From Asterionella formosa (Eukaryota): a stretch of DNA of 36,371 bases. Position numbers and translations under genes: made by a program. The stretch covers positions 1-36,371 of the forward strand of contig NKIB01015351.1 of NCBI GenBank assembly GCA_002256025.1, written 5' to 3'. This document shows positions 1-31,750 of this stretch, one piece after another. Every line of letters begins with the position of its first letter. The first letter of the stretch is position 1. The notes under the pieces were generated by a model. The model saw only the letters and a program-made list of their open reading frames with translations. It did not search any database and was not told the origin of the DNA.

Positions 1-1004
1 TTTTTTTTCAGAACACACCATTTTGTCTGAAGAAGACCAAATGCCATTTCTATTCTTATCCTTAGCTGTGAAAGGAAAAAGTTAAATGTATCCTGTGTTG
101 GATCATCACGTTGTGAGCCAACAAAGGGAACAAGCATTACATCAGACAATGTGTAAGCTGCATCGCCGACCAGATAAAAACCTGTGTTGAATGCTGCAAC
201 TTGATCGAAAATGGAAGTTTTTTCAAAAGCTACTTGGTCACTGCATTTTCCCGGTGCAATTACACCAAAATAAATAAATCTTGAGTCAGCATCACAAACA
301 GCCTGGACATTGATTCCATAAGTCATGTAGTGACCGGAAAAAAATGAACCAGGGTTGTTGCCACTTTCAACTATAGTCGGGCGGTTGATGGTGGCAAGGA
401 AGCCGTCAATAGCACCAACACATCCTCTCATCACGCCCTCTGAGCTTTTGCATTCAAAGCTGGAAGCCAATTTGATAAATTCTTCTTTTTCTTTTGGAAA
501 AATAATTTCGAGTTCTTCACAGTTTAGTACAGCATCAATGAACAAATCACGACATCGATAAAGTGAAGCAATGCTACAACCGTAGGCATGACGAATGTCG
601 ATGTAACTGCCACCAGCCAGCCATCGCAAACCAATGGCTACCACAATTTCGGGAATTATGGGCTCAGAAGTGCCACATTTGGAATAATTCCCTGCAATCT
701 GAATTTCCAGCATGGAGGTGAGTTTTTTGAATGCTCTGTGTGACATTCTGTATGTCTTCTCGAAAGCAATCTCGTGATTGAGTTTCTCGACATGTGATTG
801 CCAGGAGATTCTTTCGTGGTGCCACTTGTGCCTTCGTTGTCGTCGTCGTTCAGATGACTGAAGCTGCCGTTTACAGCGTCGCCTTTGTCGTTTGGATGAG
901 TGTTCTTTTTCCTCTGCTTCCTTAGTTAAATGACAGAGGAAGAAGAAATCAAGATCACTACTGTCATCGTCATTATCATCAAGTAAATCAAATGGCGACG
1001 ACAT
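1..1004 (-). CDS. PIF/Harbinger-family DDE transposase (DDE_Tnp_4/HARBI1-like); its 3' end lies beyond the window edge
   Basis: Manual translation from the ATG at 1004 stays open to the window edge (about 334 codons; absent from the ORF track because there is no stop). Motifs: FEKTYRMS..F, LRWLAGGSYIDI (HTH region), GCVGAIDG (first D), FSGHY..YGINVQAVCD, YLVGDAAY (second D), FNFFLSQLRIRIEMAFGLLQTKW (E). Confidence 0.93.
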   Translation of the reverse strand, partial: MSSPFDLLDDNDDDSSDLDFFFLCHLTKEAEEKEHSSKRQRRRCKRQLQSSERRRQRRHKWHHERISWQSHVEKLNHEIAFEKTYRMSHRAFKKLTSMLEIQIAGNYSKCGTSEPIIPEIVVAIGLRWLAGGSYIDIRHAYGCSIASLYRCRDLFIDAVLNCEELEIIFPKEKEEFIKLASSFECKSSEGVMRGCVGAIDGFLATINRPTIVESGNNPGSFFSGHYMTYGINVQAVCDADSRFIYFGVIAPGKCSDQVAFEKTSIFDQVAAFNTGFYLVGDAAYTLSDVMLVPFVGSQRDDPTQDTFNFFLSQLRIRIEMAFGLLQTKWCVLKK

Positions 1005-1298
1005 GATTCATGCAAATGTGTGTTTTTAATATTATATTTAGTTTCCCGGTAATTATATTTTGTTGTTGCTTGATATCAAGACCATCATTATATTCTGGAG
1101 GGATATACACATGATCTTCGCCAGCCTGTTGCCGTTGAAGATTCATTTTACTCCATGATACAATGTGATCACAAATTAGTGATACAGTGACACTTTTGGA
1201 ATGAATGAAATTCAGTTCAAATCGAGTTACCGTTGCTGATACATTTTCAAAAAAATTCAAATTCCGTGATAAACGAAAAAAAATGATAAGAACGACCC
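1..1298 (-). mobile_element. 5' part of a PIF/Harbinger DNA transposon; putative terminus at 1298
   Basis: Contains the transposase. On the minus strand TGA is followed by GGGTCGTTCTTATCA (1298-1284), which is 11/15 identical to the TIR of the element at 5623-8065. The other end is outside the window. Confidence 0.6.
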
Positions 1299-1576
1299 TC
1301 AAATTGTGCGGTTGATGAGAGCTTGGTACATCAAAAGTCGACTCATTCGACTGTGAGTCATAGCTACGTTGATGAGCTCACTTTGACACAGTACCGGTAC
1401 CTGGTAGTATTCATGTTCATCCTCCTCACACAATTTCAAAACACCGTCAGCAACAGCATAGAAAAGAAGAACAACGTGACTACCGGGCGGTACTTGTTCC
1501 GGTATACTATAGTTCGAGAACCGGGGGCGAGCAGCAACCTGTCGATACTCTGTCCAATGAACCAAGAATAAATAGC

Positions 1577-3355
1577 ATGACGAATGCTGGCGTGAAGGAG
1601 CTTTTGTGTCCCAGAATTGGCAACATCGACCGAAATGGGAGTCGACTCATGAACGATAAAGAACAGAAGCAATACTTGTGCTCACTGACAATTGACGGAG
1701 GTGAACGAACGCAGGACTCCATCAAAGCATCAACATCCAGTGATGCTGTTTCCAATACAGGCAACGATTTTATAGATGAAGCTTTCACAGAGAACCTCAC
1801 CGGTTTATTGGGACAAACTAATGGGGATATTCCGTCGCCTTCCATGTCAGACCAGCACTCTGACTCTTCTGACGCAGCTACCGAATGGATGGAGGCCACC
1901 TTGGGGCGTTCTCATCGGTTCTGGTCCTTTCGATCTCTCCTAACATTTGATGCCATCCAAGGTTCCTTCATTAATCAACTGCCGACCCCACTCCCTCACT
2001 ATGCTACTATCCGCCACAAATTTGGTTTCAACGTGGCTTTTTTGGACATGAAACACGGTGGGAGACACATGGGTCCCGCCCTTCTCGAACCGTACCGTCA
2101 CGTTGGCGATCCTGTCATAGACAGCATTATGAATGATCTGGAAACTTGCGGCCGCCCACTCAAGGCCGGAGACGATTTGTTTGCCGCTGCTCAAGACAAG
2201 GCACTTCCTGCTGCAATACTTGCTGACCTGGAGGCGTTTTTCGAATACTACAAACAAACACCCCCGTGGTTAGACTTGAAACAACTGGAACGTGGTCAGC
2301 GAGTTTTCTTGAAATACTGTCCTGCCATTTCAGTTTCCTTGTACTACCGATCGTTGGTAGCAGGCTTTAGTATTCCTAAGATTTCAAAAGTCATTCAAGC
2401 GACTGCATATTTGGCACCGCCAAGCCGACCTGGTGATGTCACGTTGAGATTGATCGATACGGGGGGCCTCCTGGGAGCATGTTTCGCGGAAGAGCTGAAC
2501 CCAGGAGGAGATGGATGGAAGACGGCCCTGCACGTGCGTTTCTTGCATGCTAAAGTTAGGCGGGTTCTTTTGAAGCGTGGCGGGAAACGAGCATGGGATA
2601 CTGCCACTAATGGAATACCCATCAATCAAGAAGATATGGCGGCAACGCTATTAGCCTTTAGTATCAATTCATTAGTTGGAATGGAATATATTTCAGGGAT
2701 ATCAATCTCGAACGAAGAAAGGTGCGACTTTCTTGCTGTGTGGCGATACATTGGTTGGTTGCTAGGAGTATATTGTGAAAATGATTCTTGGAGTACTCTA
2801 TTGCGTCCGCTAGATCCATGTGGACCGGGATGGTACCCATTTTATCCAGATCCCATTGCACATGCCAAGGCAATTCTAGAGAGTGTCGTTTTTCATATCT
2901 TGGAACCAGATGAGTCGTCAGCTGTGATTGCTCACCACCTTCTAAACATTGGGAGGCCTAAACGAGACGTCAATGGGAGAACAATTTTTGATAATGACAA
3001 AACGACAATGACATCATCAATGGCGGAAAAGCAACAAGTTCCCTTTTTGTTTCGAGCATTGGTATGCCGCCATTTTATCGGCGATCCGTTGGCTGACGCT
3101 CTGAAACTTCCATTTCATTTTTCTTGGACTCAGCGTCTTAAATTGTCACTTTATTCATTTTTGTATCTTTGGTGCTTGCGAGTTTATACATGGGTCACCA
3201 TGATATACCCACAGCCTTTCATTTCGTGGCATAAACGTGTCCTTCACAGATTTCACAAGGATTGGACCACGCTTCATTCTTCACGAATGGCTCGAACATT
3301 GAACACTGCTTCTGCATGTCCATTTGCCATGGTAAGGGACCCGAATGACAACTAG
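1577..3355 (+). CDS. ER-bound oxygenase MpaB / rubber oxygenase Lcp-like protein (DUF2236 family)
   Basis: 592-aa ORF with PPWLD..QLERGQRVF, RLIDT, ALHVRFLHAKVRR, W.....GIPINQEDMAATLLAFS and WRYIGWLLGV, plus C-terminal ACPF. The true start may be a downstream Met. Confidence 0.85.
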   Translation: MTNAGVKELLCPRIGNIDRNGSRLMNDKEQKQYLCSLTIDGGERTQDSIKASTSSDAVSNTGNDFIDEAFTENLTGLLGQTNGDIPSPSMSDQHSDSSDAATEWMEATLGRSHRFWSFRSLLTFDAIQGSFINQLPTPLPHYATIRHKFGFNVAFLDMKHGGRHMGPALLEPYRHVGDPVIDSIMNDLETCGRPLKAGDDLFAAAQDKALPAAILADLEAFFEYYKQTPPWLDLKQLERGQRVFLKYCPAISVSLYYRSLVAGFSIPKISKVIQATAYLAPPSRPGDVTLRLIDTGGLLGACFAEELNPGGDGWKTALHVRFLHAKVRRVLLKRGGKRAWDTATNGIPINQEDMAATLLAFSINSLVGMEYISGISISNEERCDFLAVWRYIGWLLGVYCENDSWSTLLRPLDPCGPGWYPFYPDPIAHAKAILESVVFHILEPDESSAVIAHHLLNIGRPKRDVNGRTIFDNDKTTMTSSMAEKQQVPFLFRALVCRHFIGDPLADALKLPFHFSWTQRLKLSLYSFLYLWCLRVYTWVTMIYPQPFISWHKRVLHRFHKDWTTLHSSRMARTLNTASACPFAMVRDPNDN

Positions 3356-3482
3356 ATAATAGAGAATTATTTATGTATATATGTATTATAATAATATAGC
3401 TGACTAATATGGAGTGCATTTACATTTGCTTTTTCTATCATGTCAAGCAGCACAGCACGGTCTGATTCCTTCGGCATAAGAC

Positions 3483-5156
3483 CTATTTTTCCTTGTCTGA
3501 CGCTTCCTCCAACAGCCGTTCGATATTTGCAAGTCTTGTTTGCACAATGTCTCGCAAACTTACTACTCTCTGCAAAAGTTCTGTTCGCAAGTCAGTTTGT
3601 ACGACCAATGCAGTTTCGATTGAAGTACTGGTAATTCCCTGCTCTTCAATCATGTCTCTGAATTTCCGTCGACTTTTAGGTCTATTTTCTCTATCATCGT
3701 CTACATTCAACAAAGGATCGGCATACTTCAAGAACGCAGCAGTCAAAATTGGACTCAGAACCAAAGAATCGCATGTACTTCCAGCAAAATCGAAACCAGT
3801 ATTGGCAAGGGCCATCTCTGGACTGTCGGGAGCGAGTGCGGGATCCATGTGACTTGGAATGATTTCCGCCTTGGTATAGTTCCACACTTTGGCATCGACT
3901 TCAACATCAATCAATTCATTGACTCGTTCGTTTGCCATGGCCAATTGCAATTGAAACCCAACAATCCATTCTGGTACAGAAACGCCTAGCAGTTCTCGCA
4001 CAATACCATCTGGCTTGTCGGCTTGCGTCGCGTTGCCACTACTAGCCTTTGCTTCGTCGTCAACTTCTTTCAAGACAGTGTCCCATGTCTCTGCTGCCAA
4101 TTGCGACGCAAAGACTCCGATCAATACACTCAACCCAATAGCCAGCAATAGGATAATATCTTGCGTGTTACTCGGGTCTGTCGCTGCAGTGCCATCAATA
4201 ACAGATTTGCCAAAGTACCCCAAATATGAATCTAACAAGTATGGTTTCAAGGATCCAAGGAAGATACCAGAAGCGAAATCAAAAAAGGGGACCCCAGTTA
4301 CAGCATAGATATAATTGTAAAGACCCAATGGTACAGGAAGGACTGGTGCCAATCTCAAAACTAGTATAGCCTTGAATCCATCTTTTGCCACGACTTTTTC
4401 AATGCCTCGTAGCGACGGATTTTGTTCAACTGCTTCGAGTGCCTTGGATCGGAGAGGTGTGTCTAATTTGGCCAGAGCAAAGCAGACGGCACTACCGACA
4501 GTGGCAGCAAAGGCCGAAAACAAGGCCCCTTGCAGGACCCCGCCAAATAAAATTCCTGCCGATAGTGCCAATGCCACTCCACCAGCGTCAAATAGTAACA
4601 CCTTGCAGGCAGTCCATGCCAAAACAAACAAGAGGGCTTCAGTAGTAGTGTCCATCGATGCAGCAAAATTGAGGATATTGTCCAATTGCTCCTTGAGTTG
4701 AGGGTTGTCATTGGCAAAGTCTAGTCCGACAGCGGATGCCAAGGCGGCGCGTCCACCAATCCGTAGGGCCACTGCCCCTCCAGCGACAGCAAAGGCAGTG
4801 AATGCAACGGCCATTTTGGAATCCGACTGTTTGGGCTTTCCATCGTCGTCGAGTTCCGGAAGAAATCCTTTTTCAATTCGGAAGTTCTTCAATACTTCTG
4901 CGGCTCTGAGTGTACTACGAATTGTGGATCGCCTAGATGCAAGAATATTCAACCGTGATTCTTCTTCTATTCGTAGACGTTCTCGGTCGTCGTCATTGTT
5001 GTTTGCTGCGAGTCGCAAGACAGGCACACGTGTCGTCGCTTCGGGAAGATGACTACGACCAACCAATATTCCCGAGGAAAATGCATCCGTCGGATGTGAA
5101 GACAAACAACAGATTGCTGTCAACATCACTGTAATGCACCAAATATATTGAATCAT
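3483..5156 (-). CDS. VTT/SNARE-associated (DedA/TVP38/TMEM64-type) membrane protein, probably plastid-targeted
   Basis: 557-aa ORF with LALSAGILFGGVLQG...ATVGSAVCF and ILVLRLAPVLP..LYNYIYAVTGVPFFDFASGIFLGSLKP. The N-terminal signal peptide ends in TDA|FSS (ASAF-type motif). Confidence 0.85.
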   Translation of the reverse strand: MIQYIWCITVMLTAICCLSSHPTDAFSSGILVGRSHLPEATTRVPVLRLAANNNDDDRERLRIEEESRLNILASRRSTIRSTLRAAEVLKNFRIEKGFLPELDDDGKPKQSDSKMAVAFTAFAVAGGAVALRIGGRAALASAVGLDFANDNPQLKEQLDNILNFAASMDTTTEALLFVLAWTACKVLLFDAGGVALALSAGILFGGVLQGALFSAFAATVGSAVCFALAKLDTPLRSKALEAVEQNPSLRGIEKVVAKDGFKAILVLRLAPVLPVPLGLYNYIYAVTGVPFFDFASGIFLGSLKPYLLDSYLGYFGKSVIDGTAATDPSNTQDIILLLAIGLSVLIGVFASQLAAETWDTVLKEVDDEAKASSGNATQADKPDGIVRELLGVSVPEWIVGFQLQLAMANERVNELIDVEVDAKVWNYTKAEIIPSHMDPALAPDSPEMALANTGFDFAGSTCDSLVLSPILTAAFLKYADPLLNVDDDRENRPKSRRKFRDMIEEQGITSTSIETALVVQTDLRTELLQRVVSLRDIVQTRLANIERLLEEASDKEK

Positions 5157-6259
5157 TGTTGTGTCGTCGTATGTGAACGGTAGAAGCTCTAAAACGGATG
5201 CAGTTAATTTGATCGAAGCCAGTGCTTCGATATAATAGACTGGAACGAAGTGTAAAATATACTAAATTTTGATTTATTATTATATGATTTTTTTTGTCGA
5301 TGATAAACTACATACATAAAATGAGTCACCATGATATCTACCGTCGTATCCATGCTTCTTCAGTGTTGATTGGCAAAGATCTTTAAAACCAGGTACCAGG
5401 GTACCTGGTACCGTACCCCCTGGTGTCCTTATGATATGCATGTACTGGTTGGTCAACCTTGTACTGGTACCTGTTACCTGTTACCTGGTACCAGGAACGA
5501 GGTAGGATGAAATAAAATATACCGGTATGCTGGTATGTATACCACTCTGGTGTGGTTGAGAAATACATACCGGTATTTAGTGATCAATGGAGGTGGAGGA
5601 GAGCAGCAAACAGATCAGCTGAGGGCCAATCTTAACAGCGATACAAAAATCAAAAAATGTTGCTCAGCCCAATTTTTTGCATCTCACATATCTGGGTGAT
5701 ATGCTGCTTCCAGCAACACATTTTTTGTTGCTCCGAAATGTGTATCTGTGTGTATCGCTGCATATTATACAGCGTTGAGCAAAACTAATGTTATAAATTA
5801 AATATATGACATGTAATTAAATTAATCAACAAAGACACCATTTTTATCTCTAATGGCAACAACAAAAATGAATTTTGGGAGGAGGGATTCTCAGCAGCAA
5901 TTATTATTATCTCTAGCTAATCATGGAATAATGCTTTTTATCACTTGTAAAAGACTTGTGCAATGGCATCATTTGAATCTTCAGACAATCAAACTTACTC
6001 TGCAGCAAGGAAACAGGATGACCAGTGGGTTGCATGTATCACTCCTGCTGATTTTTTCATTGACAACGAAGGGTCTTTGGGGACAATTAAAGACATGCTC
6101 ATTCAACAGATATCGCTGCAACGACTTCTTGCGTTCACTTTAAAATCGCCTGATACAGAAACATAACAAATGATAATGATTACACTCATTAAGAATTGGT
6201 TAAAGACTCTTGATCTTTGAGACATGATGGGGTACAACAAAAAGTCATCAAAAGAACCT

Positions 6260-6397
6260 AAGAAGTATCTGAGAAGAAACGGAGCTCCCTTTACTCCTGA
6301 ATCATCAACAATGTTGTCTCCTTGCCTAAAGAAGTATCTGAAAAGAAAAGGCTCTCCCTTTACTCCTGAATCATCAACAAGGAAGTCTCCTCGCCTA
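6260..6397 (+). repeat. Two-copy 69-bp tandem repeat inside the TIR element
   Basis: aagaagtatctga...ccctttactcctgaatcatcaaca starts at 6260 and again at 6329; it translates as KKYLRRNGAPFTPESSTMLSPCL / KKYLKRKGSPFTPESSTRKSPRL. Confidence 0.85.
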
Positions 6398-6617
6398 ATA
6401 CTATCAAAGCAACTTTCTACTACAAGAGAAGATATTGCCAATGATTCAAGTACAGATTCCGAATCATCTCCTTTCCAATTGTCTACATTTACATCTCCAG
6501 TTCCTGCTGATGTTAATTGGATGACGATTCTAAAAGATCCCACCAGATTATTAAGAAACGACAAGGAATACCTCCCAAGAATCAGAGGAAAAGAAATGCT
6601 GCAATTACTCCCAAATT

Positions 6618-7182
6618 CATGCCGGCTGTACAGAAATCGTGGCGGTTATCATTGAACATACACTAACTGATTCGAATGCTGGGGATTCCCAAGCTTTCCT
6701 TTGTAGGGCGGGTGGAAAGACGGAAGCATTAAGGTTCGACCACAAACCACAGCAGCAAGATCGAGAAATAGATAGAATCCACAAGGCTGGTCGATTTTTC
6801 AACCAATTCGGGCGTGTGAATGGAAACTTGAACCTTTCTTGATCCATTGGTGATCATCTGAAATATAAACAAGTTCCTGGAACTCCCCCAGCAGGACAAA
6901 TGATTACAGCGGAACCCAATATTGTTCAGGTGATTCTGCATCCAAATGACGAATTCATTATTTTTGGTTGTGATGGTATTTGGGATTGCCTCACTAACAA
7001 ACAGGTGGTTAAAATACGTGATTGAGCAAATTGACACCAAGACGCCAGTAGAGATTGGAATTGAGATGATTGATGAAATCAGTAGTGAAGATCCTCGATC
7101 TACCCAACAAGTTATTGGCGGCGATAACATGATGCTTATGGTTATTGATTTGCAACCATGGCAGCAACGAGCCTACCAGTGA
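6618..7182 (+). pseudogene. C-terminal fragment of a PP2C/PPM protein phosphatase, inactivated
   Basis: HAGCT..VAVI...NAGDSQ..LCR...DHKP....E..RI.KAG......RVNGNLNLS*SIGD.LKYK....MITAEPN......DEFIIFGCDGIWDCL...GGDNM. In-frame TGA at 6840-6842, +1 frameshift in AAAA at 7011-7014, N-terminal half missing. Confidence 0.9.
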
Positions 7183-7306
7183 AAACTCTATAATTAGAAG
7201 TCTCAGTACTGTAAAATATGTCATTTTATTTGTCGAATCATTTCTGACAACGGCTGCATGCAGTAGGTAAGAACCCAATATTATAGGGTTGGGAAACCGT
7301 TATTAA

Positions 7307-7590
7307 AGGATTCAGACGCTTGGGGTGACGAGGGAACCAGGCTGCCTTTCGAATGTTGGGCAGCCCTAAAAATAGCATAATGACACACTCGAGTCCAATA
7401 CCTCCGCCGCCATGGGGAAGAGCACCATTTCGTAATGAGTTCACATTTTCCTGAATCCTCGATACATCGATTCCCCATGCTTTGGCCCGCTCTTCCAACA
7501 AGTCTGGGTCATGAACATGCTGAGCACCTGACAAAATTCCTTGTCCACAAATGATGTTATGATGGAAGATCGAAGGAGTTCCAGTAGTTG
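7307..7590 (-). pseudogene. C-terminal fragment of cytosolic aspartyl-tRNA synthetase, degenerate
   Basis: NYWNSFDL../[29 protein letters not shown]...[40 protein letters not shown] matches the AspRS motif-3 region. The normally conserved Arg residues of GAQR and GLER appear as H and C, and the rest of the gene is absent. Confidence 0.88.
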
Positions 7591-8180
7591 ATTGAAAGCT
7601 TCAAGAGACATGCAATATTCACAATGAAATCTTTTTTCATGAAGAAGCTTTGTGACATGCTCATTCCAGTCAATTCATTGATGCTCCCATTTTGGAATTC
7701 GCACTGGCTTCAAGTTTTGTTCATAGTAGGACTCCAAAAATGATAATGTAACTGCTGCAATTAACAAAAAGCTCTGTTGTTCCGCTTCTTTATCAAGATT
7801 GTCAATGACATCCTAACTTTCAGGTTCTTCCGGTCGATTTGTTGTTGTCATTGCAGCAATGATAATGGTCAGACATGTTGAATAATTGAAGCTCACATTG
7901 CAAATTTTTTTGTTGAGTCTGATGTACATGTTTGCAGAGACATAAAGAAAACGGCTTACTGTTTTACTGTTACAGAGATATATTTGTGAAAGGTCTCTCT
8001 GTTAAGATTCATTTTTTTCTGAAGATAAAACAAAAAATAATTTGTATCTCTGTTAAGATTGGCCCTGAGTGTCACTTTGGGATATGATATGAACCAGAAG
8101 GAAAAATCGCACATATCAACGTCCGTATATGTAGTACCGGTATATGAGGTCCCATTCTTGGTGCCAGGTACCTGGTACCA

Positions 8181-8264
8181 GCAAGTTGCGGTCATTTTGC
8201 TAACATTTTAATCTCGGATAAAGATAGCTAAATATTTAGTTTATGCAAAATTCCCGCAAATTGA
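8181..8264 (+). repeat. Mini inverted-repeat element, family A (copy 1)
   Basis: gcaagttgcggtcattttgc ... gcaaaattcccgcaaattg; shares the internal ggataaaga.agctaaa..tttagttt with 14315-14403. Confidence 0.7.
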
Positions 8265-8601
8265 AGGTACGTACATGGTACTGTACGATGATGATATTGT
8301 TGTGAACCGACCGCTTAAAATATTGCATTATTTTACATCAAAGCAATACCGGTAGACGGTTTCTGACTTACTCCAGTACCGGTATCTGCCTCCTCAGGAG
8401 GAATCCAACAATAGACCCATCATAAACCGGCAACACAATACCGGTACTGTTATTACCCCACACATCACTGTATGTTCGATTCGAACTGCGAGTACAGTAA
8501 GGTTGTGCTTTCTTTCATGAACTGAGAATTATAAAAGCGGGTATCATCAACAACATTAGTATTTGCTTTGTAGCTTGCTGCTCACGCATCAGCACATTAG
8601 A

Positions 8602-11036
8602 ATGACGATACTAGAACAAGACAAACTCGTATCTACATTGAGCCATGTGTTGCTCGACCAAGATATTGATGGTATCGATGAAGATCTCATTCAGTATCTG
8701 GCTGGCTTGTTGTCCGAAGGACTAGACGATGGAATCACAGAAGAAGATGTACAAGAACTCATGGGTCCTTTTCTGGAATCGGTTGGTTGTCCTGATACCC
8801 TTTGCAATCAGGCCAAACAAGCTGTTTTGGATATGGCTATGTTGCAAACGACAAACTCCACGGCGTCGACGGATGGACCTGTCGTACTTAAACAAGGTAT
8901 CGTGACCATGTCGCTAGACGACAACGACGATGACAATGCCATGGATTTGCTATGGGGAGGCAAGTCCCACAAGGCCAATTCCAACACCGCCATGGAACAC
9001 AAATTACGATCCTCTGCCAAAGACCGGCGCAAACAAAAACAAGAACTTGAAAAGACTCGCAAGGAATATCAATACAAATTGGAACAAGAGCAAGCAGCCG
9101 AAGCGGCGGAAAAGGGAGCGGTATCGGCCATGGTATTGCCAGATTACAGGTCGGGGAAGGGAGAACGAGATGTACTGGTGCAAAATGTTCATATAGCCTT
9201 GGACAATGGAAGATCTTTGCTGGATGCTGGAGAACTCAAATTTGCGTACCGACGTCGATATGGACTGGTTGGGAAGAACGGGGTGGGAAAAACAACATTG
9301 CTAAAGGCGATTGCCAGTATGGAGATTGTTGGCTTTCCAAGACATTTGCGTGTCTTGCATGTAAGACAAGAAATTAAAGCATCTGGGACAGACGATAGTG
9401 TCTTGAAGGCTGTCATGGATGCCGATGTCGAACGTATTGTGTTGATACAAGAAGAACAGGCCTTGTTAAAGAAATTAGAAGCTGATGATAACATCCATGG
9501 GGGCGTTGACGATGAAGCCACCACAATGTCGGTAAAGGAAAAGATCGAGAAGTTGGCAAAGGAAAAATCGAATGACTCAAGCTTCAAGGAAGATATGTTG
9601 CGATTGGACGAAGTTTACGCTCGCTTGCAGGTACTAGGAAGCGATTCGGCTGAAGCCAGAGCTAGCATGATTTTGAGTGGCCTTCAATTTACACCAGAGA
9701 TGCAGCGGGGACCAACTTCTGCATTGTCAGGGGGTTGGCGTATGAGAGTCAGCTTGGCTGCCGCCTTGTTTATTGAACCTGACTTGCTAATGCTCGATGA
9801 GCCGGTGAGCCCCTTTGTGCCTCATGTGTTGCATGTTGCTCTGATATGTAAAGTCGGGTTTCTCACTTTCTATTCCGTATTTTTCTGGTTTCTCTTTTGA
9901 TACAGACGAACCATTTAGATTTGGAAGCTGTCTTGTGGTTAGAATCCTATCTAGTTGAATATAAGCATACGCTAATAATTGTTTCGCACGACCGGGGATT
10001 CCTGAATGAAGTTTGCACAGATATTATTGAGTTTGATAAACGGAAGCTCAACTACTACAAGGGTAATTACGATCAATATGTCAAGACTGCCGATGACAAT
10101 GTCAAGAACCAAATGAGAGTCTATCATGCTTACAAGGATAAGCGAGCTCACCTTATGGAATTCATTGATAGGTTTCGGGCCAATGCCAATCGAGCAAGCG
10201 TTGTTCAATCCAGAATTAAACAGGTGGAAAGGATGGACCTGGAAGCACCAGACCTTATTGAAGTGCCACCAGTATGGCGATTTAACATTCCTAATCCAGA
10301 ACCCCTGGGTCGGCCCATTATTTCGGTTGACGACGTATCTTTTGATTATGCCACCATGTCGGATGATGGGGTCAAGAAACCTTTATCGTCGTATTTGTTG
10401 CAAGAAGCCAACTTTGGTGTGGATATGTCCAGCCGTATTGGAATTCTAGGCGCAAACGGTGCGGGAAAATCTACGTTGCTGAATCTGATCATGGGAAAGT
10501 TAGAACCCATCAAGGGATCGTGCACTCGAAATGGTAGGTTGCGAATTGGTCATTTTACGCAGCATTCGGCCGACAAGTTTGATCTGCAGCTGTCTGCTGT
10601 GGAGAATATGCTGGCTCTGTTTGATGATGCAGAAGATCAAGAGATGCGGTCGTTTTTAGGACGATTTCAGATTCAGGGTGTCGATGCTCTCAAGCCCATG
10701 TTCTTACTGTCTGGAGGACAAAAATCTCGTGTCGCTTTTGCGTCCCTGGCGTACCAGAAGCCTCACGTTATCGTAATGGATGAACCCACAAATCACTTGG
10801 ATATGGAAAGTATTGATGCTTTAGTTGATGCCATTAAGGATTTCAAGGGTGGTCTTATTGTTGTTAGTCACGATCAGTTCTTCATTACCAACACATGTTC
10901 CGAGTTGTGGGTTGTGGGCGAAGGAAAAGCTACTCGATTCCGCGGAGACTTCAACGAATACAAACGGCATACCCTTGAAAGGACAAGAAAGCGTGTGGAA
11001 GCTAGCGTTAAGATGCTGAGTGCGATTAATAACTAG
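8602..11036 (+). CDS. ABCF3: ABC-F family ATPase, ABCF3/GCN20-like (exons 8602-9804 and 9906-11036; about 777 aa)
   Basis: Two ABC domains (GKNGVGKT, LSGGWRMR, LDEP|TNHLD; GANGAGKS, LSGGQKSR, MDEPTNHLD) and no TM domains. The GT..AG intron 9805-9905 rejoins LDEP-TNHLD in frame. Confidence 0.92.
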
Positions 11037-14247: not shown

Positions 14248-14314
14248 AGAGGAGGTAGTACAATACTATGCGCCGCCGGTACCTGGTACCCTTGTACCCT
14301 GGTGCCAGGTACTT

Positions 14315-14403
14315 GCACGTTGCGGTAATTTTGCTTAAACTAACAATGAATATGGGATAAAGAAAGCTAAACTTTTAGTTTCAGCAAAATTCCCGCAACT
14401 TGC
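14315..14403 (+). repeat. Mini inverted-repeat element, family A (copy 2)
   Basis: Terminal inverted repeats gcacgttgcggtaattttgc (14315-14334) and gcaaaattcccgcaacttgc (14384-14403) are 18/20 complementary. Confidence 0.75.
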
Positions 14404-14634
14404 TGGTACTGGTACCGTACCGGTAAGCCATTTCGTGATGAGAAGCTCCAACAAATGGGAGTGTGTTATTTTATATAATTTTTGAATGTCGACAAAAACG
14501 TGCATTACTACAAAAGAGGTGTTCTAGGTACCTGGGAGTACCACGTAAACTCAACGAGGAGGAACGGAACGACTCGTGGCACACTTTTGATTCCTGTTAC
14601 CGGTATGCTAATAACAACAGAGTCTCGTTCCACG

Positions 14635-17491: not shown

Positions 17492-17633
17492 GGGGGACAG
17501 GGAGGGGGGGGGGGGGGTTATTTAGGAAATTTAAAAATTGGNNNNNNNNNNCCCCCCACGCCCCCCCCCCCCCACCCCCCCCCCCCCCCCCCCCCCCCCC
17601 GCCCCCCCCCCCCCCACCCCCCCCCCCCCCCCC
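17492..17633. other. Assembly gap (10 N at 17542-17551) flanked by poly-G/poly-C low-quality sequence
   Basis: An N run with long G and C homopolymers on either side. Confidence 0.9.
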
Positions 17634-19680
17634 GGATATTCTGCAACTTTACAAATAGGTGATACACATGTAACACCACACATCCCCTTAGGAATCCGAA
17701 ATGCGGCCAATCAAGACGAAATGGAAACATTTAATTTTAAAAAGCAGGCTGGGATACATGCTTTATATTTGATATGGTGCTGGACTGGGAAGCGAAATGG
17801 GATACAAGCAAAACTTGGAGAGGTTCAAGAAAAATGGCAGTTTTCAAATTGGAATACCAGAGCGAGATATTTGATGACAAAATGGAAAGGAATTCAGGAG
17901 CATGCACTTATGTGGCATCTAAATTTCAAGAGAGCATTTTACAATGGTTATTCAATGAACAAAAAAGATGGGTAGGAGCAATTTCTCAGTCATGAGATGT
18001 TGTAGGGTCTCTCATGTTCAAAGCGTACCTAAACCAGATAGACATCAGTGGGGGTCAGCCATTAAAAGGGAAACTAAGGAAACACTGGAGGGCAGCAACA
18101 TAGAAGCCCATGGTAAAGAAAGGGGGATGGCTTATATATGCAAGGCAGAAACTTGGAGTGCCCAGATGATAGCAAGTTTGTAGAACATGGTGGTGCAAAG
18201 TTGGATTATTAGAAATGAAGAAGAACTCTATGGGAATATAAAGAAGGAACAATGAACTAACTTGATGGTGGAGGAGGATATGCAAGTTAGGAGATGTGAA
18301 GATGATCAGCAGTGGGTTTTTACAGTGGACACCTCAATGTTTCCATTGCCTGGCTGTGGAGGTCAGGATATAGAGATGCACCCTACATCTAAAGAGGCTA
18401 TGGGTGGACACAACCGATATTGCATTCAACATGTGGTATCAGTACGGTGAGAGCCATGCTGGGAATGATGGAGCTTGGCTTCGCTGCACAGAAACATGGA
18501 TATATGGGTATAGGCCTTGGGAGGCACAGAAGAAATGGGTTTGAAATTTCAATTGTGTCAATTTGGTCACAAGTGCATTTTCAATTTCGTAGTCAAATAT
18601 CGTACTCTAAAATTTATTTGTTGAACAAGAATAGGGGGGATGTCAAGAATACAGCATCAATGCCTATAATGAGTCACAAGGACTGTGGAATCTGTCTGTA
18701 AATAAAAAATATCATGAATATAGGATCAAGGGTATCATACGCTAAGTGGCACAGGATTTTTACATATATGATAGTTTTTCAATCAAAAATATGATCAATG
18801 TATCATATAATTATGATCATGCAGTAAACTTTTACCAAGCTTGAAGTATGATGAGACTATCATAGTTATAATACCATTGCATCATAAAATTAGTTAAACA
18901 TGGTCATATGATGTGTATACTTTTGTCATACATCTATCTTAGCATGATCGTAATTCTCATCGATATCACTGTCTAAAATAGGATGAAATTGATCGAAATT
19001 TAGAACTATATTTAAGAATGGTTTTATGTTTCTATATCTTGAGTGGCTACAAAATGTTCTACAAGAATGCTCTCATCGCAATGATTGGTGCTTTAGCTCT
19101 CACTTCCACATTCCCCCCAATCCAATTCTGAAGGTTGTTGTACTGGTTGCCTTGCCGTTGTTCCCCTGCTTGCTTTGTTCCATTTACTCCTGAGGAATCT
19201 GATTTTGCATTCACGCACTATTGAATCCATTTCGTTGTTCCAATCAGCCATACTAACAAAGAGAAGCAATTCATTGTTAGCTGCTCATTTTTTGCTACAC
19301 AACAACATGCATTTTGCTTCTATCTGCCTTCACTTACCACAAATTGAGGAGGTAACTGATGCACATTTCTGTAGAAGAATGTGTCAGTCAAAGATTGAAT
19401 GAGAAGCAAAGTATCGATCAATAAATGGGCTCCAACACTGCTGTTTGTAACTTACAAATACTAGTACTGTTTGTCTACCATTATCCTGAAAGAAGCAACA
19501 CATATGTGTCAGTTTTTTTAACAGTTGTAGATTGATCCAAAGATGGCTGATATGCAGCACTTACCGATTTCTTTTGTCCACATTGATGGTTGGCCAGCCA
19601 CAAAATCGAAAAGGAGCTATTGAATCACTGAAAGGGGACGAGTCATTCCATCTTTGAAATCCCAGCAATTGATCATCCTG

Positions 19681-31665: not shown

Positions 31666-31750
31666 CAAGTTTAATTTTGCTTTAATTAAATATTTAGCTT
31701 TTTTTATCCCATATTAAATTGTTTATTCAAGCAAAATGAGTGCAATTTTG
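31666..31750 (-). repeat. Mini inverted-repeat element, family A (copy 3, reverse orientation, degenerate)
   Basis: aattttgc...aaatatttagctttttttatcccatatt...gcaaaatgagtgcaa is the reverse complement of the family A interior (atatgggataaa.aaagctaaa). Confidence 0.65.

What the first reader, a model, noticed from the sequence alone, without database searches (positions are those of the whole stretch)
5620..8068. 'Pack-Harbinger': non-autonomous TIR element carrying captured PP2C and aspartyl-tRNA synthetase fragments
Seen: 25-bp TIRs (24/25), a TGA duplication and subterminal TIR-core copies enclose the 3' halves of two housekeeping genes plus unassigned coding-like DNA, with no transposase. 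It sits in the divergent promoter region between the VTT and ABCF3 genes. Known: Pack-type gene capture is documented mainly for plant MULE, CACTA and other TIR elements. Inference: a gene-fragment-shuffling Harbinger family in a diatom, which I do not know to have been described.
Basis: partly seen in the sequence, partly recalled or inferred. Interest (0 to 1): 0.78.

Follow-up and report, generated by a model that had tools for sequence, protein, structure and literature searches.

The report
Diatom transposon carrying two gene ends
A dead cut-and-paste transposon in a diatom once swapped its middle for a single slice of host DNA holding the tail ends of two neighbouring genes and then spread to about a dozen places, a kind of gene capture already known from plants and animals.

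Summary
Observation confirmed; interpretation partly. Window 5623-8065 is a non-autonomous PIF/Harbinger element with 25-bp TIRs (24/25) and TGA on both sides; its 16-base TIR core occurs 53 times in the genome. It derives from a decayed ~3.45-kb two-ORF element with a DDE_Tnp_4 transposase; about 2.0 kb of that interior is replaced by 940 bp of host DNA. The cargo is ONE contiguous slice of C12371, where intact single-copy PP2C and AspRS genes lie tail-to-tail, so this is one capture, not a shuffle of two genes. The 'unassigned coding-like DNA' is the element's own ORF1 and transposase 5' ends. The same junctions occur at 11-12 loci with different flanks. Copies decay neutrally (pN/pS about 1, CpG-biased); both fusions are out of frame. 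No empty allele was found; the filled left junction is in two independent populations. No second host cargo was seen in the other family members examined. It is a Pack-PIF, known from maize and rice; my searches found no diatom report. The scan already reported this family from other copies (e1-7547581, e1-7576836, e1-7575996).

The parts
5620..5622 (.). left target-site duplication TGA
   Evidence: family flanks are mostly TAA/TTA, TGA/TCA a minority
5623..5647 (+). left terminal inverted repeat, 25 bp
   Evidence: 53 exact matches of its first 16 bases in G000
5623..6616 (+). left arm of the progenitor Harbinger, with the decayed 5' part of its non-transposase ORF (ORF1), cut after the codons for ...ATAPK
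   Evidence: 83-92% identical to cargo-free family members, ending at the same base
6260..6397 (+). 69-bp tandem duplication inside ORF1, present in some family members and absent in others
6615..7554 (+). captured host DNA, 940 bp, matching G000:C12371:4936-5862 end to end (90%); 2-base AT overlap with the left arm, blunt join with the right arm
6615..7182 (+). 3' end of PP2C phosphatase gene (last 184 codons and stop), pseudogenised: internal stop and a 1-base insertion at 7009
7183..7303 (.). the parents' 121-bp intergenic spacer
7304..7554 (-). 3' end of aspartyl-tRNA synthetase gene (last 83 codons; stop codon lost)
7555..8065 (-). right arm of the progenitor, with the decayed transposase N-terminus (7701-7570 aligns to DDE_Tnp_4-bearing proteins)
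7996..8009 (-). subterminal copy of the TIR core (14 of 14)
8041..8065 (-). right terminal inverted repeat, 25 bp
8066..8068 (.). right target-site duplication TGA
3483..5156 (-). left neighbour: VTT-domain gene, transcribed away from the element
   Evidence: Pfam PF09335 E 2e-15; RNA contig 4000-5163 with 0 differences
8602..11036 (+). right neighbour: ABC-F family gene with one intron, transcribed away from the element
   Evidence: Pfam; RNA contig 8352-10000 joining 9803 to 9905

Best explanation
A Pack-type PIF/Harbinger element made by one capture event. Shown: a ~3.45-kb Harbinger with two convergent ORFs lost about 2.0 kb of its interior and gained a 927-bp contiguous copy of the convergent PP2C/AspRS 3' ends; the product kept both ends, was moved to 11-12 places, and has since decayed neutrally. 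Inferred: the swap arose when a break inside the element was repaired by copying from the host locus (gap-filling or fork-stalling template switch, guided by a 2-base overlap at one end); the copies were moved in trans by the family's own transposase in the same burst as the cargo-free copies; methylation drove the CpG decay. The window's copy is now an inert old insertion between two genes that are both still transcribed.
For: Cargo matches one segment of C12371 from base 1 to 927 including the intergenic spacer; uncaptured parts of both parents are single-copy, 1 of 1 candidates each. Left junction identical in 11 of 11 cargo copies aligned, right junction in 10 of the 11 (C7729 lacks that end). 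Progenitor-type copies of 3.3-3.6 kb carry DDE_Tnp_4 (E 1.4e-12 and 5.8e-16). Matching 3-base duplications at 5 of 6 cargo copies with both ends intact: TGA, TTA, TAA, TTA, TAA; C14258 mismatched. C14258 and C3323 share one internal deletion but are 93% identical with different flanks, so a derivative moved again. Copies: pS 0.037, pN 0.037, Fisher p 0.94; changes at CpG sites 110 of 859 against 105 of 3115 at other C/G and 103 of 4735 at A/T. Both fusions out of frame at the junction as inherited. Left-arm tree is star-like, 0 of 18 inner branches strongly supported, median tip 0.045. No family remnant on the 7.9-kb parent contig. PMC8277862 (passages) reports median 2-bp microhomology at Pack-TIR breakpoints.
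Against: A 2-base and a 0-base overlap do not exceed chance and do not prove template switching. The left-arm tree does not recover the cargo copies as one clade (3 label changes, unsupported), so single origin rests on the shared junctions. No empty allele was seen, so transposition to this site rests on the TSD. No intact transposase of this family was found among the copies examined. The parent differs from the copies' majority state at 22 of 189 synonymous sites, more than the 12-16 expected if the donor were the direct ancestor of today's allele (Poisson p 0.005-0.07); this is unexplained. Methylation was not measured.
Confidence: 0.8

Rival explanations
1. Same element, but captured by fusion of two neighbouring insertions: two family copies landed in tandem around the PP2C/AspRS junction, lost their inner ends, and the outer ends carried the DNA between them away (the Pack-CACTA model). 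The donor haplotype, broken in both genes, was later lost.
For: Gives the same left arm + host DNA + right arm product. PMC8903248 (passages) supports this route for maize Pack-PIF. A lost donor haplotype would fit the synonymous excess between parent and cargo. Adjacent or rearranged family copies occur at C13066 and C13446.
Against: Needs two insertions into coding exons 927 bp apart plus two deletions. No family sequence on the parent contig. No inner TIR or TSD remnant at either junction.
Confidence: 0.12
2. An ongoing gene-shuffling family that repeatedly captures and combines fragments of different genes.
For: A 241-bp piece of the cargo, with the copies' alleles at 10 of 11 diagnostic sites, sits in a different high-copy repeat at C15315, so the cargo was copied onward at least once. 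An unchecked scan note (e1-7564182) describes another Pack-type Harbinger in this genome.
Against: One cargo only, contiguous in the host. In the 17 cargo-free elements compared and the 20 further TIR loci, interiors were progenitor deletions, nested repeats or a lone end; six lone-end loci had no partner TIR within about 4.5 kb. All copies are 2-6% from their common state, none young.
Confidence: 0.08
3. The cargo was copied from RNA (a read-through transcript) rather than DNA.
For: The cargo spans no intron; it starts 24 bases after a putative 3' splice site of PP2C, so the intron test is silent.
Against: It includes the 121-bp spacer and coding sequence of both strands; one transcript would have to run at least 370 bases past the PP2C stop into AspRS. 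No poly-A at either junction.
Confidence: 0.04
4. Assembly artefact or the only copies of the genes.
For: The assembly is fragmented (15,436 contigs) and holds exact duplicate contigs (C13524/C15292, C12368/C6681).
Against: Intact parents exist; copies differ by 3-11% in the cargo with distinct flanks; the left junction is in contigs of two independent studies.
Confidence: 0.01

Closest known systems
Pack-PIF elements of maize and rice (Pack-TYPE transposons; Gisby and Catoni 2022, PMC8903248, passages read)
   Same: PIF/Harbinger TIRs, 3-base mostly TTA/TAA duplications, non-autonomous, internal host gene fragment with an intact parent, multi-copy cluster beside cargo-free relatives.
   Different: Host is a diatom; cargo is larger (927 bp against 163 and 58 bp in Zm-Pack-PIF cluster 18) and spans two convergent genes in one piece; arms keep recognisable 5' parts of both element ORFs.
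Multicopy Pack-TIRs of animals, e.g. Ssk-FB4 and Pack-hAT-N8_XT (Tan et al. 2021, PMC8277862, passages read)
   Same: Single capture with short microhomology at one breakpoint, then recurrent transposition to distant sites.
   Different: That paper's main text does not mention PIF or Harbinger (0 occurrences); Ssk-FB4 is young and possibly functional, whereas these copies are old and neutral.
Harbinger-like DNA transposons of Thalassiosira pseudonana (PMC2806351, passages read)
   Same: Harbinger elements are already recorded in diatoms.
   Different: That paper's text has no occurrence of 'captur', 'gene fragment' or 'non-autonomous'; sequence relationship to this family was not tested.

Membership tests
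PIF/Harbinger superfamily | 3-bp target duplication, mostly TTA/TAA | tested here: met
   38 of 68 distinct TIR flanks end in TAA or TTA, 10 more in TCA or TGA; this copy has TGA on both sides. Criterion from PMC8903248 passage.
PIF/Harbinger superfamily | short terminal inverted repeats (criterion recalled) | tested here: met
   25 bp, 24 of 25
PIF/Harbinger superfamily | DDE transposase of the DDE_Tnp_4 (IS5/Harbinger) type in full-length relatives (link of this Pfam family to Harbinger is recalled) | tested here: met
   PF13359 E 1.4e-12 at C497 and 5.8e-16 at C13563; N-terminal remnant in the window
PIF/Harbinger superfamily | second ORF encoding a Myb/SANT-like DNA-binding protein (criterion recalled) | tested here: inconclusive
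   A second, convergent ORF exists but decayed pieces gave no meaningful Pfam match and no usable ESM Atlas hit
Pack-TYPE / Pack-TIR elements | non-autonomous element bounded by TIRs and TSD | tested here: met
Pack-TYPE / Pack-TIR elements | internal sequence copied from a host gene whose intact parent lies elsewhere | tested here: met
Pack-TYPE / Pack-TIR elements | mobilised after capture (several sites, distinct TSDs) | tested here: met
   11-12 loci with different flanks; empty allele of this site not found
Pack-TYPE elements acting as gene shufflers | fragments from several unlinked loci merged in one element or varied cargo across the family | tested here: not met
   one contiguous cargo; no other host cargo in the loci examined; catalogue incomplete because searches score only the best 40 candidates
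Pack-TYPE elements yielding new genes | in-frame or selected chimeric product | tested here: not met
   both junctions out of frame; pN/pS about 1

The most novel reading that the evidence does not exclude
The element is a molecular fossil of a vanished, once-functional PP2C-AspRS haplotype (a lost homeolog or an introgressed lineage), since its cargo differs from today's genes almost only at synonymous sites; and because both captured ends lie in sense behind the element's two inward-facing promoters, copies could yield double-stranded RNA against two housekeeping genes. Together with the onward copy at C15315 this would make Pack-Harbingers a real route of gene-fragment traffic in diatoms.
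Probability: 0.12. Interest if true: 0.6.

Novelty: new member of a known kind. Interest (0 to 1): 0.33.

Why it matters
It extends Pack-type gene capture by PIF/Harbinger elements to diatoms (stramenopiles), with parent locus, progenitor, exact junctions and a dozen copies all in one genome, which makes it a clean worked example. It also warns annotators that partial PP2C and AspRS 'paralogs' in this genome are transposon cargo. It does not show a new mechanism or a new gene.

Tried and rejected
Empty allele in the assembly: left flank (7 of 7 candidates scored) and right flank (40 of 1061 scored, the rest of the hits being a 110-bp repeat) gave no second full-length copy of the locus. Empty allele in public runs: 4 of 24 listed runs were laid; none of the 15 joints shown (13 more not shown) skips 5623-8065. 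X2 (5536-5728, 0 differences) and X6 (5203-5669) bridge the filled left junction; X7's contig 8039-8169 has only 27 bases inside the element, under the tool's bar of 31. X6 has no cover at 6814-7416 and RNA run X10 none at 6211-8019; holes in contigs prove nothing, so neither 'cargo absent in X6' nor 'not transcribed' is claimed. Orthologous empty site in relatives: 17 metagenome loci with VTT relatives (50-70% identity) had no ABC-F neighbour and no DNA match to the intergenic region (0 of 17), so they are too distant. In-frame fusions: rejected; only C7729 reaches the PP2C frame through a later 4-base insertion and it has stops. Second copy of the parent locus: none. ORF1 identity: Pfam and ESM Atlas gave nothing usable (innexin hits at 0.76-0.78 are below the tool's lead level). 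C6535's apparent insert is an N gap. Rows dropped: C15292, C6681, C9426 and C15315 were left out of the 11-copy majority and pN/pS counts as duplicates, possible duplicates or secondary copy; C15292 and C7729 were left out of the arm tree, C12368, C6681 and C3323 lack a left arm. Literature: five searches listed no report of Pack-type capture in a diatom; the library lacks most subscription papers and Repbase, and I read no supplements.

Full report
Observation. The window has TGA at 5620-5622, a 25-bp TIR at 5623-5647, its inverse at 8041-8065 (24 of 25) and TGA at 8066-8068. The first 16 TIR bases occur 53 times in G000 against 0 for the reversed control. Of 68 distinct flanks, 38 end in TAA or TTA and 10 in TCA or TGA. 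A perfect subterminal core copy lies at 7996-8009; none was found at the left end. The neighbours are a VTT-domain gene and an ABC-F family gene, divergent, with start codons 467 and 537 bp away. The host is a diatom by the named relatives of its AspRS (Seminavis robusta 77%, Phaeodactylum tricornutum 81%).

Progenitor. Searching G000 with the whole element gave 59 matches from 40 of 332 candidates scored. Many share only window 5623-6616 and 7560-8065. Fetched whole, these are decayed 3.3-3.6-kb elements (C13563 3441 bp, C15066 3485, C8691 3338) and their deletion derivatives. They carry a DDE_Tnp_4 transposase reading inward from the right end (PF13359, E 1.4e-12 and 5.8e-16) and a second ORF reading inward from the left, which I could not assign. 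The window's 'unassigned coding-like DNA' is the 5' part of those two ORFs: 7701-7570 aligns with a database transposase N-terminus at 59% over 44 residues, E 2e-12. Against C13563, 1996 bp of interior are replaced. All copies examined have stops or frameshifts.

Cargo. Window 6615-7554 matches G000:C12371:4936-5862 end to end at 90%, and that locus has no arm sequence. There an intact PP2C gene and an intact AspRS gene (565-aa open frame) converge with a 121-bp spacer. Their uncaptured parts are single-copy. The cargo is therefore one slice: the last 184 PP2C codons, the spacer and the last 83 AspRS codons. The left junction has a 2-base AT overlap between arm and parent; the right is blunt. 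Both captured ends lie in sense behind the element's own ORF starts, but both fusions are out of frame.

Amplification. The same junctions appear in C14304, C15063, C13524 (duplicate contig C15292), C13207, C6191, C9426, C2423, C14258, C7729, C12368 (duplicate C6681) and C3578+C3323 (overlapping halves) as well as the window: 12 loci, or 11 if C6191 and C9426, which share 66 bp of flank, are one event. Five of six copies with both ends intact have matching 3-base duplications. C14258 and C3323 share an internal deletion yet differ by 7% and in flank, which indicates a second round of movement.

Age and fate. Eleven copies are 94.4-98.3% identical to their column majority. Changes are neutral (pS 0.037, pN 0.037, p 0.94) and concentrated at CpG (110 of 859 sites, against 105 of 3115 and 103 of 4735), which I read as methylation-driven decay (inference). 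A tree of 21 left arms is star-like, no inner branch strongly supported, median tip 0.045, and does not separate cargo from cargo-free copies: one old burst, with single origin of the cargo resting on the junctions. One thing is unexplained: the parent differs from the majority state at 22 of 189 synonymous and 8 of 609 non-synonymous sites (p 6e-9), more synonymous change than the 12-16 expected from the copies' age (p 0.005-0.07). The donor may have been a diverged allele or a lost duplicate.

This insertion. No second haplotype of the locus is in the assembly. Of 24 public runs listed, 4 were laid: contigs from two independent studies bridge the filled left junction and no listed joint skips the element. 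The insertion looks old and shared; the empty allele was not seen. RNA contigs cover both neighbours without differences, the ABC-F intron spliced, so both are transcribed; an effect of the element on their levels was not tested.

Is the family a shuffler? In 17 cargo-free elements and 20 further TIR loci interiors were progenitor deletions, a 4.3-kb nested repeat, a tRNA-headed insert or lone ends; I saw no second host cargo, though the catalogue is incomplete. The cargo itself moved once more: 241 bp of the PP2C piece, carrying the copies' alleles at 10 of 11 diagnostic sites, interrupts one member of an unrelated high-copy repeat at C15315, where nine other members show the uninterrupted site.

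Mechanism. Shown: replacement of the interior by one host slice, amplification, neutral decay. Inferred: break repair by template switching (about 0.8), or fusion of two neighbouring insertions (about 0.12), or an RNA template (about 0.04). The junction overlaps are compatible with the first but too short to prove it.

Known context. Pack-PIF elements with TTA/TAA duplications are described in maize and rice (PMC8903248, passages); Pack-TIRs with short microhomology in animals (PMC8277862, passages); Harbinger elements in Thalassiosira pseudonana (PMC2806351, passages). A 2026 review of gene capture in plants has no occurrence of 'diatom' (PMC13317346, passages). Five searches (listings only) showed no diatom Pack element; the library is partial and no supplements were read. 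The scan's own notes describe this family from other copies; none lie near this window.

Verdict. Real, well resolved, a new member of a known kind in a host group where I found no published case. Interest 0.33.

Noticed in passing
window 3-1004, minus strand: An open Harbinger-type transposase frame of about 334 codons without a stop, running off the contig start; 41-48% identical to four DDE_Tnp_4 proteins and only about 66% identical in DNA to this family, so a different and possibly intact element.
   Followed up: partly
G000:C15315:5070-5311 (L128 3571-3812): 241 bp of the captured PP2C piece, with the transposon copies' alleles, inserted with an apparent GTG duplication into one member of a high-copy repeat that encodes a long low-complexity ORF.
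   Followed up: partly
L081 (G000:C497), element positions 903-5197: A 4.3-kb nested repeat inserted within about 15 bp of the spot where the cargo's left junction lies; related pieces interrupt other family members (C7393, C14413, C12228, C12282). Not classified.
   Followed up: partly
L088 1355-1560 (G000:C2195): A 205-bp insert with a tRNA-like head (Rfam tRNA 25.4 bits, below the gathering score of 29, E 0.0025) and an A-rich tail; related copies at C1568 and C15315. Looks like a tRNA-derived SINE.
   Followed up: partly
window 8160-8270, also 14309-14409 and 31673-31723: A ~110-bp very high-copy repeat (1061 first-look candidates in G000) 95 bp right of the element; the copy at 14309-14409 forms a hairpin.
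   Followed up: no
L036 (G000:C6191) flanks: This cargo copy sits at the centre of a short palindrome: the left and right flanks are reverse complements around the TAA duplication.
   Followed up: no
cargo 6615-7554 versus G000:C12371:4936-5862: At 22 of the 38 sites where the parent differs from the copies' majority state, the parent has T or A and the copies C or G, against 4 the other way, suggesting the live genes drifted towards A+T at silent sites.
   Followed up: partly
window 17492-17650: G-run, N gap and C-run: an assembly gap, not biology.
   Followed up: no
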